Assembly (NCBI GenBank): GCA_934617425.1
Contig: CAKTUD010000002.1
Location: forward strand, 105,136 to 137,135
Direction: 5' to 3'
Origin: an uncultured Eggerthellaceae bacterium
GTDB taxonomy: Bacteria; Actinomycetota; Coriobacteriia; Coriobacteriales; Eggerthellaceae
Length of the DNA stretch: 32,000 bases
Shown: piece after piece, positions 27,001-32,000 of the stretch
Layout: the number at the start of each line of letters is the position of its first letter
Numbering within the stretch: the first letter of the stretch is position 1
Made by a program: the position numbers

Positions 27001-30000
27001 GGTTTACAACAACACTTCCAAACAGCAAGCTCAGTGCGATTCCGCCGTCGAGACTCTGAACGCCGCAGTTGAGGCATTCAACAGCTCTGCCGACCAGGTT
27101 CAAACCTACGGCATGGAAGCGGGCGTGTGGTACACCAATTCTACCGAGAAATGGAGTGGCACTAAGCAGGGTATCGGCGGTTATACCCCCTTCGATAATC
27201 AAAACGCGTTGTACAAGCTTAACGACGACGGCACCTTCACCGTGCGTGTGAAGACCTATGGCAAGTTGTTCAAGGTCGATCAGGTTGCCTATGGTGACGA
27301 CAAGATTGACGCGACCAAGACTGGTCAATGGAACCAGGGCTTGGGCTACAAGGGTCCTGACACCATGTGGGACTTCACTGTTTCCGATTTGTCGCAGGTG
27401 ACCGCTTATGTAACGGGCGCATACCAAAACGGCACTTCGCTTTCGGCCGAGCCGTTTACGCTAGCCATCGATGGTTTGTCGCAGGGTGGCGATTACGGCT
27501 TTACGAAGGCGGCTTCGCAGCTTGACGATGGAGCGCTTTATCAAGCGTGGGCGTACGGGAAGGCGCTTGCGCGCGACGAATCGAAGCTCGATGCCTATCA
27601 GCAGCTGCAAAGCGCGCTTAGCGCTGCCGAGGGCATTCGTTCGGCGGTGAAGCAGGGCAAAGATACCTACACGCAAGCTGATATCGATGCGGCGACCGCA
27701 CGCGTGAACGAGGCTATCGCGGCATACGAAGCGCCCGTTGCCGACCCGACGTTCGGCTTGGAGGTGGGGGTCTTCTATAACCGCACGCGTCTGAACGATT
27801 CCGTGGCCGACGCGAATGGCACGAGCGTCAAAAGCGACGGCCCCATTTCTTTGGGCAAAACCACGTTTCGCTTGAATGACGACAAGACGTTTGAGGTGAC
27901 GCTTGCCCTGCCCGAAGTTTCCGGCAATTCCGGCAGTACCGTGGAGTCGGTGGAGCTAAGCTCGACCGATGATGCTTCCACCGCAAAGGCCGCAACGCAG
28001 ATCGGCGGCGGTGCGGGCGTGGCGCAGTTCCGTGCGGATGTCGCCTCGCTCGAAAACGGTTTCTATGCGTGGATAACCTATACTGACGCCGCCGGTGTAA
28101 AGCACGAGAATTCCAAGTTCCAGGTGAAGCTTGATTTTTCTGCCGAGGACGGTTACGGCTTCACGAAGCTTGCCAACCAGGACGACACGCGCAAAGACTT
28201 GTATGCGCAAATAGTTGCTGCTCAAAATGTCGAGCAGGGCAATAAGACCACTGCCGCTTGGAACACTTTGCAAGAGGCGATACGCGCAGCGCAGGATGTC
28301 TACAAGCAAGATAACGCTGCCGAGGGTGTCTACACGAGCGCTGCCACAACGCTTGCAAGCGCAGTCGAAGAGTTCAACAAGTCGGCTGAGGGTCCCACGA
28401 TCGAGAAAGATACGCGCTATGGCTTGGTAATCGGGTCGGTATACGAACTGTCATCGCCGTCGAGCAATCTTGTGGTTGTGGGTGCGGCTAAAAACAAGCT
28501 CAGTTCGGCGAACTTCCATTACATCGCACGCGCCGACGGCACCTATGACATCGATCTGTATGCCTGGTCTGCCGATATCGAATCGGTGAAATATTCCACC
28601 TCCAACAACCTTTCGGGCGCTTCCGCTGCGGTGAAGACAGGTGACCATAATTGGCGCATCAACGTGCCGAACATCGCCGGTGTGGCATATGCATGGATAA
28701 CTTACACCGACGCCGATGGCGTGCTGCACGAAGACGAGCAAGTGACTATATCTCACAGCAACCTCGCCAACAAGTCGTTTAGGGATATGAACCAGCTTGA
28801 CAAGGGCTTGCTGTATGCGGCCTATCACGCAGCCGATGATATCGAGTACGGAAGCAAGCCCGAGGGCATATGGGTGAGCTTCTGCGAGGCACGCGATGCG
28901 GCCAGCACGCTGCTGAGGAATTCCAGCGGCAAGGAGCAAAGCGACATCGATGCCGCGCGCGATGCCATGAACGAAGCTGCCGAAGCTTATCGCAATGCGG
29001 CTGACGACCCCAACGGCGGCAAATATGGCCTTGAAGCAGGTGCTTGGTACACCAACTGGAAGGCTCGCCTGACCGACGCCGATGGCAACAAGCTTTTGGC
29101 GGGCGATGAGCAGAACCCGTTTGTTTACGGCAGCGATTATTACGGCATCGAGGTCGATGGTTCGGCGTTCGTCATCCAGATGTGCGGCATCGATAAAGAT
29201 GGCGAGAACAGCATAGCCTCTGTTAAATGGAGCCAAGCCGATGACGAATCCACGGCAAAGGACGCCACCAAGGTGAGCGGCCGCGTGGGTTCTTATAGCC
29301 CTGGTCCTGCCAATTGGCAGCTCGACGGGGTAGAGGACCTTACCAAACCCGTTTACCTGTGGGTAACCTACACCGATCAGCAGGGCGTGGTGCATGAGAA
29401 TGCCAAGTTCGTCAAGAGCCTGTACGGTTTGGGAGCTTCGGCTACGCATGCGTTTGTAAAAACCTCGCGCTCGGTTGATTCCAGTGCTCTTTATAAGGCG
29501 CTCAAGCAGGCAGAGGCAATTGAGAAGGATGCTACCAAGAGCGATCTCGCCTGGGTGACGTTCGACCTTATCCGCGAGACCAATTACGTGTACTACGCGA
29601 ATAAGGCAGACGGCGACACGCAGGAGAACATCGACGTCGCCACGCAGCAGGTGCTCGACGCCATCGAGGCGTACAAGAACTCCGAGAGCAATGACGCGCT
29701 TGATTTCGCGAATTTGTCTGACGGTACTTACACGGTGAATGTCGAGATGCGCAAGGTTGATAATCGCGATTCGCTTTCGATGTCCAACGAGGCCATCAAT
29801 CACGAGGTTGAGCTGACGGTCGAGAACGGCGAGTATTATCTGACCTTTGACTTCCAGGGTTTGAAATATCTTGACAAGGATGGCTATCTGGGAAATCTTA
29901 AGTACTACGACGAAGGTTATACCTACGGCAAGTACGGCTCTCCCGAGGGCGATTTGGTCGATGCTACGGTTATCACAACGCAGAAGGACGCTGAAGGCAA

Positions 30001-32000
30001 CGACGTTTACGATGGGTTCAATACTCCTGGCTCGGCGGACAAGAACTTCGAAGGGCTCTATCCCGACAAAGTGCGCATAAAGTATGTGCCGACAGCGCGC
30101 AACGATGCCGATGGCTATATCCCGTTGCAGGTGTTCGTGCCGGTTATGGAATCGATTCAGGAAGGCAACGGCACTCAGGACGTGCTTGCCAAGGTGGACA
30201 AATCTTCCGTCAAAAAGGTTGCCGACCAAGGCGACAGCGTGAACAAAAATGACCTTCAGGCTAAGGTAACCGCAGCTAATTCTGCTCTTGCAGGCAGCAA
30301 GAAAAACGTTGATGCGAACGAAGCGCTGAAAACGGCGATGGACGAGGCTGCCAAGGTGCTCGACAAGGCTGATGCTACTCAGGAAGAAGTCGATGCAGCG
30401 GCGGATGCTCTGCAGAAAGCAATCGATAAGTTCAACAGCCAGCCCGATGCGATCGTTGTCAACAAGAGCGAGCTTGCCAATGCGATTAAGGCTGCAGAGG
30501 GTGTTACTCGGGACAACAAGACCGATTCCGCTTGGGATGCGCTGCAAGATGCAATCAGCAAGGCTAAGCGTGTGAACAGCGATGCCAATGCGACGCAGGC
30601 GGACGTGAATGCGGCAACCAGTGCGCTTAACGAGGCTGTGAAGACTTTCAAGGCCTCGGCTGATAAGGCGGACGAGACGCTCGACTTCTCCAATCTGCCA
30701 GCTGGTACTTACAGCATCAACATCGATATGTACAAGATGAACCGCAAGGATAAATCGATGTCCGATGCGGCCATCAACCACAAGGCAAAACTCACCGTTG
30801 ATGCCAACGGTGACTATTGGATTACCTTTGATTTCGCAAGCGTGAAATCGGGCACCACCAACGGCTATCTGGGGAGCCTTTCGTACTACGACGAGGGTTA
30901 TACCTACAGCGGGGCTACGGTAAACGGAACGGTTGTCGCCGGCACGGTTGTCGACTATCAGACCGGGGTCGATGGCAAGCAATATCCCAACCGCGTAACG
31001 GTGAAGTTCGTGAAGACGGCACGCAACGACGCCGATCATTTCATCCCGCTGCAGGTGTTCGTGCCGGTGATGGAAGAGATTGCGGCCGATTGCGGCAAGC
31101 AGGATGTCCTTGTCAAGTACGACCCGTCGTCGATCCAAAAGCTTGATGGCGAGATTCCCGACCAAACGATCCCAGGTGTGAACGGGGATGGCAACAATGG
31201 CGCGGATAACGGCAATGGTGGCAACAACGGTGGCGCCACGATAACCGCGCCGAGCAAGGTGACTGCTTCTAAATCGGGCGTCACAGCTGCAACTGCCAAC
31301 GGCGTGACGGCGGCGAAGAGCGCGAGCCTTGCGGCTAAGACGGGCGATAGCGCTAAGCAGATTGTCACGCTTGCCCTTGCGGGCTTTGGCGGTTTGGCTG
31401 CGGCGGCTTACGCAGCGATGCGCCGCAGGTTCGGCAAGCAAGAAGGCGAGGAGTAACCGATGCAAACGCGCAACGGCGCGACGCTTTCGCGCGCGAATGT
31501 CATTGCGGTGTGTGTGGCAATCGCGACGGCGCTGATCATCTCGATCGGCGCCGTCATAGCCCAGCCAGGACAGGCATTTGCTTCCACTGGCTATACGGCA
31601 ACCGCCACGCCGTATTATCGCAACCCTGCAACGGGCGTCATCGAAGATTCCGGTGGTGAGAATTCCGAGGTTTTGGGTCAATCGATGACCGAGGGCTGCG
31701 TGTCCCCGGTGGCGTTTCTCGAGATCGATGATGCGGGCAACCGTTATGTCACGTTGCGTTTGGGCCTTATGGACAACATCAACAACGTGAACATTTTGGC
31801 TGATGACGATTGGACGAATTCGTATTATCAATGTGCGCCGCAGACCATAGCGGTTGATGACGCGACTACCGATTTCCGCATGCTGGTCGGCAGCGAAGGC
31901 GCGATTTTCCGCATCAATATGTATGTGGTTCCCATGGGGCGCGAGGTCATCTTCTACGTGGCTCTTTCGGGTTTTAGCGAAGGTAATCCTTACGGCTTCT

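What the first reader, a model, noticed from the sequence alone, without database searches (positions are those of the whole stretch)
29699..31150. NEAT-like domains lack the canonical YxxxY heme motif but conserve S-M-S, N-H, G-Y-L-G..YY.EG(Y/W)T(Y/W) and V-P-V-M
All three NEAT-like domains (the first is at 25586-26185) begin like textbook NEAT domains: LDF.NL.DG.Y.v....., an SM-containing lip, then L.V.NG.Y. At the strand where Isd-type NEATs carry YxxxY they read (Y/H)(I/F/V)PL(Q/R)V(F/A)VPVM(E/G) with no second Tyr. Three elements are conserved in all copies. They are a Met in the lip (SMSN/SMSD), a His (NH) about 6-12 residues later depending on the copy, and a Met in VPVM. The adjacent Shp-type protein is known to ligate heme through two methionines. 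These domains may therefore use Met/Met or Met/His coordination, which would be a new NEAT subclass. Alternatively they may bind something other than heme.
Basis: partly seen in the sequence, partly recalled or inferred. Interest (0 to 1): 0.65.

Follow-up and report, generated by a model that had tools for sequence, protein, structure and literature searches.

The report
Shr-type bis-methionine NEAT haem domains
The three odd NEAT domains are real, but they belong to an already solved kind (Streptococcus pyogenes Shr NEAT2, which holds haem iron between two methionines), here on a giant surface protein of an uncultured high-GC bacterium next to a Shp / haem ABC-transporter cassette.

Summary
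Observation confirmed. One + strand gene (25281..31456, split by a 9-G tract) encodes about 2,000 aa with three 160-200-aa NEAT-like domains. All three lack YxxxY and share S-M-S, N-H, GYLG and VPVM.

Interpretation partly supported. The domains are full-length homologues of Shr NEAT2 (PDB 9W5Y; profile E 1.2e-35; 31-39% identity). The lip Met and the VPVM Met align exactly with Met997 and Met1107. Crystallography and mutagenesis showed these to be the two axial haem ligands (J Biol Chem 2025, PMC12796733). Met/Met is therefore the likely coordination, but it is not a new subclass.

In 345 related domains from 151 representative proteins, S-M and VPxM are about 99% conserved, and both Mets occur in 282/282 complete domains. 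The His is kept in only 56%, which argues against Met/His.

A non-haem ligand is unlikely. Downstream lie Shp (both axial Mets kept), an IsdE-like binding protein, a FecCD permease and an ABC ATPase. Two DtxR-like boxes lie upstream.

New here:
- The family is widespread in gut Clostridia and Eggerthellaceae, not confined to S. pyogenes.
- The architecture differs from Shr: three NEATs plus four or five cryptic NEAT-fold modules.

Verdict: new member of a known kind; modest interest.

The parts
25140..25158 (.). DtxR/IdeR-like box 1 (TTAAGTTAGCCGAAACATA, 14/19 to the consensus), just upstream of a TTGACA hexamer
   Evidence: this and box 2 are the two best matches in the 32-kb window. Both lie in the 377-bp intergenic region. 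Local shuffles gave at least one such hit in 0.8% of trials and two hits in 0 of 2000.
25222..25240 (.). DtxR/IdeR-like box 2, a palindrome TTAGATTAACGAAATCTAA (14/19)
25281..25439 (+). Signal-peptide ORF (MANNS...NAVLAATLAASMVPSAALAENVAGGG), cut off from the main ORF by a frameshift
   Evidence: Homologues P0002-P0004 carry the same signal peptide fused to the mature protein.
25406..25414 (+). Run of 9 G; one more G would fuse the signal peptide with the main ORF
   Evidence: The same split (52-aa plus 1940-aa genes) is seen on ENA contig ERZ27287198:k141_346297.
25442..31456 (+). Main ORF of the giant surface protein (2004 codons open). Order of parts: NEAT N1, then FIVAR-like helical linkers alternating with beta modules, then N2, two FIVAR-like linkers, N3, and a C-terminal AAKTGD + hydrophobic segment + RRRFGK sorting-type signal.
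25583..26182 (+). NEAT N1 (200 aa, with extra insertions). Lip Met76 codon at 25667-25669; VPVM Met222 codon at 26105-26107.
   Evidence: (31% identical to Shr NEAT2, E 3e-25)
29696..30220 (+). NEAT N2 (175 aa). Lip Met1447 codon at 29780-29782; VPVM Met1569 codon at 30146-30148; His1454 codon at 29801.
   Evidence: (39% identical to Shr NEAT2, E 2e-35)
30674..31150 (+). NEAT N3 (159 aa, shortest beta5-beta6 loop). Lip Met1773 codon at 30758-30760; VPVM Met1877 codon at 31070-31072.
   Evidence: (37% identical to Shr NEAT2, E 3e-28)
27101..29461 (+). Four divergent beta modules (27101-27541, 27746-28156, 28397-28771, 29012-29461; possibly a fifth at 26402-26851), separated by FIVAR-like helices. 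They are predicted to have a NEAT-like fold but lack the SM and VPVM motifs.
   Evidence: pLDDT 88.5; best Foldseek hits are IsdX1, IsdX2-N5 and IsdH NEATs; TM 0.70-0.75 normalised to the target; E 6e-3
31460..32000 (+). Start of the Shp homologue (436 aa on the source contig). Both axial Mets of S. pyogenes Shp (Met66, Met153) are conserved (GQSMTEG, VVPMGREV).
   Evidence: Pfam HemeBinding_Shp, E 8e-44; 2Q7A, E 7.5e-19

Best explanation
The three domains are haem-binding NEAT domains of the Shr-NEAT2 type. Haem iron is held between two methionine sulfurs. One Met comes from the lip helix (S-M-S) and the other from the V-P-V-M turn before the last strand. The extended GYLG...YP loops deepen the pocket.

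The protein is an iron-regulated, wall- or membrane-anchored haem receptor. It passes haem to the adjacent bis-Met Shp. Shp passes it to an IsdE/HtsA-like lipoprotein, and a FecCD/ABC importer brings it into the cell.

Shown here: homology, ligand-position identity, fold, family-wide conservation and gene context. Inferred: actual haem binding, the direction of transfer and the regulation.
For: - A profile of N1-N3 matches the Shr NEAT2 crystal chain 9W5Y over its full length (E 1.2e-35; N2 alone E 3.5e-26).
- Chain positions 28 and 138 correspond to Met997 and Met1107 (construct Ala970-Thr1129). They align with the SMSN Met and the VPVM Met of every copy.
- Met997 and Met1107 are the axial ligands in the 2.66 A structure, and the double M-to-S mutant loses haem (PMC12796733).
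- The AlphaFold model of N2 has pLDDT 95.1 and pTM 0.90. Nearly all of the 50 best Foldseek PDB hits are NEAT domains or NEAT-containing Isd proteins, led by IsdX1 (TM 0.81 normalised to the target).
- Family-wide, S-M is kept in 328-329 of about 333 domains and VPxM in 288-293 of 294. Both Mets are present in 282/282 complete domains.
- Context: Shp with both axial Mets, an IsdE-like binding protein (E 1.5e-60), FecCD and an ABC ATPase.
- The same NEAT-Shp-binding protein-permease order occurs in 55 of 77 related loci.
- Two DtxR-like boxes lie upstream.
Against: - There is no experiment on this protein.
- Identity to Shr NEAT2 is only 31-39%.
- The Foldseek library did not return 9W5Y, so the structural match to it was not measured. 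No model coordinates were available to check the Met-Met geometry.
- In this assembly the gene is split from its signal peptide by a 9-G frameshift, so it may be switched off or be a pseudogene.
- N1 has large insertions, and N1 and N3 score below Pfam's NEAT cut-off on their own.
Confidence: 0.85

Rival explanations
1. Met/His coordination: the conserved His of the N-H motif is one axial ligand together with one of the Mets, either permanently or in one redox state.
For: The His is present in all three copies and in Shr NEAT2 (AINH) at the same +7 spacing. It is enriched in the QVFVP sub-family (146 of 181 domains). Single Met mutants of Shr NEAT2 still hold haem, so a back-up ligand is conceivable. 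From my own knowledge, the lip His83 of IsdA can ligate ferrous haem.
Against: The crystal structure of the homologue shows Met/Met, and the paper's main text says nothing about this His. The His is kept in only 187/331 family domains (Lys in 46, Asn in 14), whereas both Mets are present in 282/282. In N1 the spacing differs (+14).
Confidence: 0.07
2. The domains bind something other than haem, for example another tetrapyrrole such as a corrinoid, or a host protein.
For: The canonical SxxxxY and YxxxY motifs are absent. The hosts of the family are gut anaerobes, many of which need corrinoids (the need for corrinoids is my own knowledge). Peripla_BP_2 binding proteins also include BtuF (weak hits at E about 1e-5).
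Against: The closest solved relative binds haem. The downstream binding protein matches IsdE and Lmo2184 at E 1e-60 to 1e-73, against about 1e-5 for B12 binders. Shp with both haem-ligating Mets is adjacent. DtxR-like iron boxes lie upstream.
Confidence: 0.04
3. The gene is inactive in this genome, either as a pseudogene or in the 'off' phase. The domains would then be relics or only intermittently expressed, whatever their chemistry.
For: A 9-G tract separates the signal peptide (frame 0) from the mature protein (frame 2). There is no in-frame start before the first strand of N1. The same split is present on the ENA contig. Homologues are uninterrupted.
Against: A 6-kb ORF with all motifs intact and no other stops argues for recent or ongoing selection. 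Homopolymer length errors are common in assemblies. The ENA contig is probably the source of the window, so it is not an independent observation.
Confidence: 0.15

Closest known systems
Shr NEAT2 of Streptococcus pyogenes (PDB 9W5Y; Seki et al., J Biol Chem 2025, PMC12796733)
   Same: Full-length homology (31-39% identity; profile E 1.2e-35). Same long 160-175-aa NEAT variant with extended loops. Shared SMSNxAINH, GYLG, YP and PLQVFVP(V/I)M motifs. The two axial Mets are at identical alignment positions. An adjacent shp and a haem ABC transporter are present.
   Different: The host protein is not a Shr orthologue. It has three such domains instead of one NEAT2 plus a divergent NEAT1. It has no DUF1533/HID domains and no LRR; instead it has FIVAR-like linkers and 4-5 cryptic NEAT-fold modules. 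The host is an uncultured high-GC bacterium, not a streptococcus. Haem binding is untested.
Shr NEAT1 (PDB 9W5Z) and Shp (PDB 2Q7A), the other bis-Met NEAT-type haem binders
   Same: Bis-methionine ligation with one Met after a Ser on the lip (Ser389-Met390 in NEAT1) and one Met near the last strand. The window's own Shp keeps Met66 and Met153.
   Different: Sequence similarity of N1-N3 to Shr NEAT1 is marginal (E 0.015, N-terminal 43 residues only). Shp belongs to a separate Pfam family (PF11545).
Tyr-ligating Isd-type NEAT domains (IsdA, IsdC, IsdH-N3, IsdB-N2, IsdX1, IsdX2-N5, Hbp2-N2)
   Same: Same eight-strand fold with a lip helix (Foldseek TM normalised to the target up to 0.81). Same N-terminal 'L..L.DG.Y' strand. 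Same role as surface haem relay modules.
   Different: No YxxxY and no SxxxxY. About 40-80 extra residues in loops. A neutral Met/Met pair instead of tyrosinate, which in Shr is proposed to allow both Fe(II) and Fe(III) haem.
Long NEAT domains of Eggerthella sp. and Clostridium methylpentosum noted by Honsa et al. 2014 (PMC4143258)
   Same: 159-aa NEATs lacking both SxxxxY and YxxxY, from gut Actinobacteria and Clostridia. They are very probably the same family (Eggerthella sp. CAG:298 is locus L022).
   Different: Those were only catalogued; no ligand was proposed and no link to Shr NEAT2 was drawn.

Membership tests
NEAT domain (Pfam PF05031, fold level) | Match to the Pfam NEAT profile above the gathering score | tested here: met
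   The whole protein scores 77.2 bits against a cut-off of 32.8, in 3 stretches. N2 alone scores 46.3. N3 (30.0) and N1 (20.5) fall below the cut-off on their own, and only profile positions 2-78 of 119 are covered.
NEAT domain (Pfam PF05031, fold level) | Eight-strand immunoglobulin-like sandwich with a short lip helix after strand 1 | tested here: met
   The AlphaFold model of N2 has pLDDT 95.1, eight strands, and a helix at 29-33 carrying S28-M29. The best Foldseek PDB hits are IsdX1, Hbp2-N2, IsdX2-N5, IsdC and IsdA, with probability 1.00.
Tyr-ligating (Isd-type) haem-binding NEAT | YxxxY on the last strand, where the first Tyr ligates iron, and SxxxxY on the lip | tested here: not met
   No YxxxY or SxxxxY is present in N1-N3. 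The conserved Tyr residues of the family (Y12, Y64, Y122) are also present in Shr NEAT2, where the iron is ligated by two Mets.
Shr-NEAT2-type bis-methionine NEAT | Full-length sequence homology to Shr NEAT2 (9W5Y) | tested here: met
   Profile E 1.2e-35 over positions 2-172 of the profile and 2-159 of 160 in the chain. BLASTP E 3e-25 (N1), 2e-35 (N2) and 3e-28 (N3).
Shr-NEAT2-type bis-methionine NEAT | Lip Ser-Met equivalent to Met997 | tested here: met
   Chain position 28 of 9W5Y (= Met997) aligns with the SMS(N/D) Met of all three copies.
Shr-NEAT2-type bis-methionine NEAT | Second axial Met equivalent to Met1107 (VPxM) | tested here: met
   Chain position 138 of 9W5Y (= Met1107) aligns with the VPVM Met of all three copies.
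Shr-NEAT2-type bis-methionine NEAT | Haem actually bound with Met/Met ligation | not testable with these tools
   This needs protein expression and spectroscopy or crystallography. No model coordinates were available for docking.
Shr-NEAT2-type bis-methionine NEAT | Encoded next to shp and a haem ABC transporter | tested here: met
   Shp, a Peripla_BP_2 protein (IsdE-like), FecCD and ABC_tran lie directly downstream. The same order is seen in 55 of 77 related loci.
Shr protein (whole-protein orthologue) | N-terminal haemoglobin-interacting DUF1533/HID domains, and a leucine-rich repeat region between NEAT1 and NEAT2 (Shr layout from my own knowledge; HID2 per the abstract of PMC10912661) | tested here: not met
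   Pfam finds only NEAT and FIVAR above their cut-offs (plus marginal single-strand matches to Y_Y_Y, TcfC and Por_Secre_tail), with no DUF1533 or LRR. The middle 1173 aa have no PDB sequence match at E <= 1. The modules there fold like NEAT domains instead.

The most novel reading that the evidence does not exclude
The bis-Met, Shr-NEAT2-type domain together with Shp and an IsdE-like ABC importer is not a peculiarity of S. pyogenes. It would be the standard haem-uptake cassette of strictly anaerobic gut Clostridia and Eggerthellaceae, shared across phyla by horizontal transfer. Its neutral Met/Met ligation would be suited to the ferrous haem expected in a reducing gut.

In this lineage the receptor has in addition acquired 4-5 cryptic, ligand-less NEAT-fold modules on helical linkers. 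These could capture a haemoprotein, as IsdH-N1/N2 do, under iron (DtxR-type) control and possibly poly-G phase control.
Probability: 0.35. Interest if true: 0.55.

Novelty: new member of a known kind. Interest (0 to 1): 0.3.

Why it matters

What the data add is scope. That paper presents Met ligation as characteristic of S. pyogenes. Here the same two Mets are invariant in hundreds of domain clusters:
- 801 representative proteins match at E <= 1e-3, and 284 at E <= 1e-30.
- One 8-residue pattern alone gave 168 confirmed hits among GTDB species genomes.

Almost all of the 77 loci kept from that scan come from gut Clostridia, plus two Eggerthellaceae (two carry Bacteroides-type labels), and most sit next to Shp and an IsdE-like transporter. 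This suggests that bis-Met NEAT relays are a main route of haem capture in anaerobic gut commensals, and it gives a simple sequence signature (S-M ... G-Y-L ... Y-P ... V-P-x-M) for annotating them.

Tried and rejected
- The word-indexed protein search found only 1 hit with N2 and 5 hits with a 30-sequence profile, so it gave no names and no taxonomy. The exhaustive representative search replaced it.
A narrower alignment, A3, worked, but its single pattern [QH]VFVP[VI]ME biases the hits towards one sub-family.
- No genome in the GTDB set is more than 59% identical in the domain, so the species could not be named. 'High-GC, Coriobacteriia-like' rests only on about 57% GC, the Eggerthellaceae hits and the L(A/G/N)KTG-type sorting signals of the closest homologues.
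- A look-up of the 1942-aa product found nothing. The Lgt product gave the source contig and the downstream genes.
- Foldseek's PDB copy did not return 9W5Y or 9W5Z, so the structural similarity to Shr NEAT2 itself was not measured. No coordinates are exposed, so Met-Met and His-iron distances could not be computed.
- A BLASTP self-comparison showed no internal repeats. phmmer with --max was needed to show them.
- The idea that a mis-registered Tyr is the ligand was rejected. The only near-invariant Tyr residues (Y12, Y64, Y122) are also in Shr NEAT2, where both axial positions are taken by Met.
- Orthology with Shr at the whole-protein level was rejected (no DUF1533 or LRR).
- The exact palindrome of DtxR-like box 2 (TTAGATTAACGAAATCTAA) was not found in the related loci. 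The DtxR consensus itself was scanned only in L022, L033 and L079, and the first two gave nothing above 13/19.
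Full report
**What is in the sequence**

The region of the finding lies inside one very large + strand ORF, open from 25442 to the stop at 31456 (2004 codons). It contains three related domains:
- N1 at 25583-26182
- N2 at 29696-30220
- N3 at 30674-31150

The copies are 48-56% identical to each other. None has YxxxY.

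Pfam's NEAT profile matches only its N-terminal two thirds (positions 2-78 of 119). N2 scores 46.3 bits, N3 30.0 and N1 20.5, against a cut-off of 32.8; the whole protein scores 77.2.

Two details need adjusting. The His lies 7 residues after the lip Met in N2 and N3 and 14 residues after it in N1. According to the structure model, VPVM sits in the turn or short helix between the seventh and the last strand, not on the last strand itself.

**What the domains are**

A sequence search of the PDB with N2 gives a full-length match to chain 9W5Y_A, 'Streptococcal hemoprotein receptor' (E 3.5e-26). A profile of N1-N3 raises this to E 1.2e-35 over 158 of its 160 residues. Pairwise identities to that chain are 31% (N1), 39% (N2) and 37% (N3). 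Canonical NEATs (IsdX2-N5, IsdX1, Hbp2) and Shr NEAT1 (9W5Z, E 0.015) match only the N-terminal part of the domain; the best stretch is usually its first 40-60 residues.

9W5Y is the NEAT2 domain of S. pyogenes Shr (construct Ala970-Thr1129), published in J Biol Chem in December 2025 (PMC12796733). In that structure haem iron is ligated by Met997 and Met1107. Single Met-to-Ser mutants still bind haem, but the double mutant does not. [quoted passage not shown]

Counting along the printed alignment, Met997 is chain position 28, the Met of 'ESMSNKAINH'. Met1107 is chain position 138, the Met of 'PLQVFVPIM'. GYLG, Y-P and the N-H His are also shared with Shr NEAT2.

An AlphaFold model of N2, built with a 30-sequence family alignment, is confident (pLDDT 95.1, pTM 0.90). 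It shows eight strands and a lip helix (residues 29-33) carrying Ser28-Met29. Nearly all of its 50 best Foldseek hits in the PDB are NEAT domains or NEAT-containing Isd proteins, led by IsdX1 (TM-score 0.81 normalised to the target). The Foldseek library did not return 9W5Y, so that direct comparison is missing.

**How general the motifs are**

An exhaustive HMMER search of 1.84 billion cluster representatives found 801 proteins at E <= 1e-3 and 284 at E <= 1e-30. I extracted 345 domain instances from the 151 proteins in hand. Conservation is as follows:

| Position | Conserved in |
|---|---|
| Ser28 | 328/332 |
| Met29 | 329/333 |
| Gly63, Tyr64, Leu65 | 296, 295, 288 of about 333 |
| Tyr122, Pro123 | 285, 277 of 294 |
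| Val148, Pro149 | 290, 288 of 294 |
| Met151 | 293/294 |

All 282 instances that cover both positions have both Mets. The His is kept in only 187/331 instances (Lys in 46, Asn in 14), mostly in the 'QVFVP' sub-family. A residue that is lost in 44% of domains while both Mets are invariant is unlikely to be an obligatory axial ligand. This, together with the crystal structure, favours Met/Met over Met/His.

**Context**

The window is chromosomal: a his operon, rho, metG, rpsB, tsf, murA, an LCP protein, nifU and lgt lie upstream. It corresponds to an ENA metagenome contig, ERZ27287198:k141_346297, of 298 kb.

Directly downstream of the NEAT gene lie:
- A 436-aa Shp homologue (Pfam HemeBinding_Shp, E 8e-44; 2Q7A, E 7.5e-19). 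It conserves both axial Mets, Met66 and Met153.
- A Peripla_BP_2 lipoprotein-like protein that matches Lmo2184 and the haem-binding IsdE (E 1.9e-73 and 1.5e-60), against about 1e-5 for B12 binders.
- A FecCD permease and an ABC ATPase.

This is the shr-shp-htsABC (sia) layout of S. pyogenes.

A scan of one genome per GTDB species with the pattern [QH]VFVP[VI]ME gave 168 confirmed domains. The 77 loci kept come almost entirely from gut Clostridia (Oscillospiraceae, Ruminococcaceae, Lachnospiraceae, Blautia, Mediterraneibacter and others), plus Eggerthella sp. CAG:298 and an uncultured Eggerthellaceae MAG. In 55 of these 77 loci, many of which are truncated, Shp, the binding protein and the permease follow the NEAT gene in the same order.

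No genome is closer than 59% in the domain, so the window's species is not represented. Its phylum is inferred only loosely, from about 57% GC, the Eggerthellaceae relatives and the L(A/G/N)KTG-type sorting signals of the closest homologues.

Honsa et al. 2014 had already listed 159-aa NEATs in Eggerthella sp. and Clostridium methylpentosum lacking both motifs, without proposing a ligand.

**Most likely mechanism**

The protein is a surface-anchored, iron-regulated haem receptor. Its three Shr-NEAT2-type domains each hold haem between the lip Met and the VPVM Met. Haem is handed on to the bis-Met Shp, then to the IsdE-like lipoprotein, and is imported by the ABC transporter.

Shown: homology, ligand alignment, fold, conservation and synteny. 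Inferred: haem binding itself, the transfer order and the regulation. I put confidence at about 0.85.

Rivals:
- Met/His ligation (about 0.07).
- A non-haem ligand (about 0.04).
- The gene is off or dead in this genome (about 0.15). This is not exclusive with the main explanation.

**Family membership**

The domains belong to the NEAT fold and to the Shr-NEAT2-type bis-Met class. Every sequence-level criterion is met; haem binding cannot be tested here. They fail the Tyr-ligating Isd class, having no YxxxY or SxxxxY.

The whole protein is not a Shr orthologue. Pfam finds no DUF1533/HID or LRR, and the middle 1173 residues have no PDB sequence match. It has three NEATs rather than two.

**Novelty and score**

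Two points go modestly beyond the literature I could search:
- The JBC paper presents Met ligation as characteristic of S. pyogenes, whereas the signature is invariant across a large family of gut-anaerobe proteins.
- This lineage has a distinct architecture.

Interest 0.3.

**Things seen in passing**

- A run of 9 G (25406-25414) separates the signal-peptide ORF (25281-25439) from the main ORF. One more G would fuse them, and close homologues are uninterrupted.
- Two DtxR/IdeR-like boxes (14/19 matches) at 25140 and 25222 are the best two matches in the window. Both lie in the 377-bp upstream intergenic region. Local shuffles gave one such hit in 0.8% of trials and two hits in 0 of 2000.
- The middle of the protein holds four or five divergent beta modules, found only in the four closest homologues. 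One was modelled (pLDDT 88.5), and its best structural matches are again NEAT domains: IsdX1, IsdX2-N5 and the haemoglobin-binding NEATs of IsdH (TM 0.70-0.75 normalised to the target, E 6e-3). It lacks SM and VPVM.
- The binding protein and the permease are 59-76% identical to Clostridia homologues. This is high for a cross-phylum comparison and suggests transfer of the cassette.

Noticed in passing
window 25406-25414 (with 25281-25439 and 25442-31456): A run of 9 G puts the signal peptide (MANNS...SAALAENVAGGG) out of frame with the 2004-codon mature protein. A tenth G would fuse them. The same split is on the ENA contig, while homologues P0002-P0004 are uninterrupted. It could be phase variation, a homopolymer assembly error or a pseudogene.
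   Followed up: partly
window 25140-25158 and 25222-25240: Two DtxR/IdeR-like operator candidates (14/19 to TTAGGTTAGCCTAACCTAA; the second is the palindrome TTAGATTAACGAAATCTAA) flank a TTGACA hexamer upstream of the NEAT gene. They are the two best matches in the window. Local shuffles gave two hits in 0 of 2000 trials. This suggests iron-dependent repression; from my own knowledge, the S. pyogenes sia operon is controlled in this way by the DtxR-family regulator MtsR.
   Followed up: partly
window 27101-29461 (modules at 27101-27541, 27746-28156, 28397-28771, 29012-29461; perhaps also 26402-26851): Four or five divergent beta modules separated by FIVAR-like helical linkers have no Pfam or PDB sequence match. 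One was modelled (pLDDT 88.5) and its best Foldseek hits are NEAT domains, including the haemoglobin-binding NEATs of IsdH. They lack the SM and VPVM ligand motifs and occur only in the four closest homologues. They may be cryptic receptor NEATs.
   Followed up: partly
window 31460-32000 and locus L079 17382-20825: Downstream lie a 436-aa Shp (both axial Mets kept, followed by a helical region and a membrane anchor), an IsdE-like binding protein, FecCD and an ABC ATPase. The binding protein and the permease are 59-76% identical to homologues in gut Clostridia, which is unusually high across phyla and suggests horizontal transfer of the cassette.
   Followed up: partly
window 31340-31456 (C-terminus of the big protein): The C-terminal sorting-type signal reads SLAAKTGD + hydrophobic segment + RRRFGKQEGEE. 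Close homologues have L(A/G/N)KTGD, so the window copy appears to carry one extra Ala in the LAxTG-like motif.
   Followed up: no
window 25040-25075: A G+C-rich hairpin (AAATGGCGCGCAACGATTTGCGGTGCGCGCCATTT) followed by a T-rich stretch lies between lgt and the NEAT gene. It looks like the lgt terminator, which would make the NEAT-shp-transporter genes a separate transcription unit.
   Followed up: no
window 7277-9532: Rho is 751 aa long, with about 330 extra N-terminal residues before the Rho_N and RNA-binding domains. From my own knowledge, such extensions are typical of high-GC Gram-positive bacteria, which fits the taxonomic guess.
   Followed up: no
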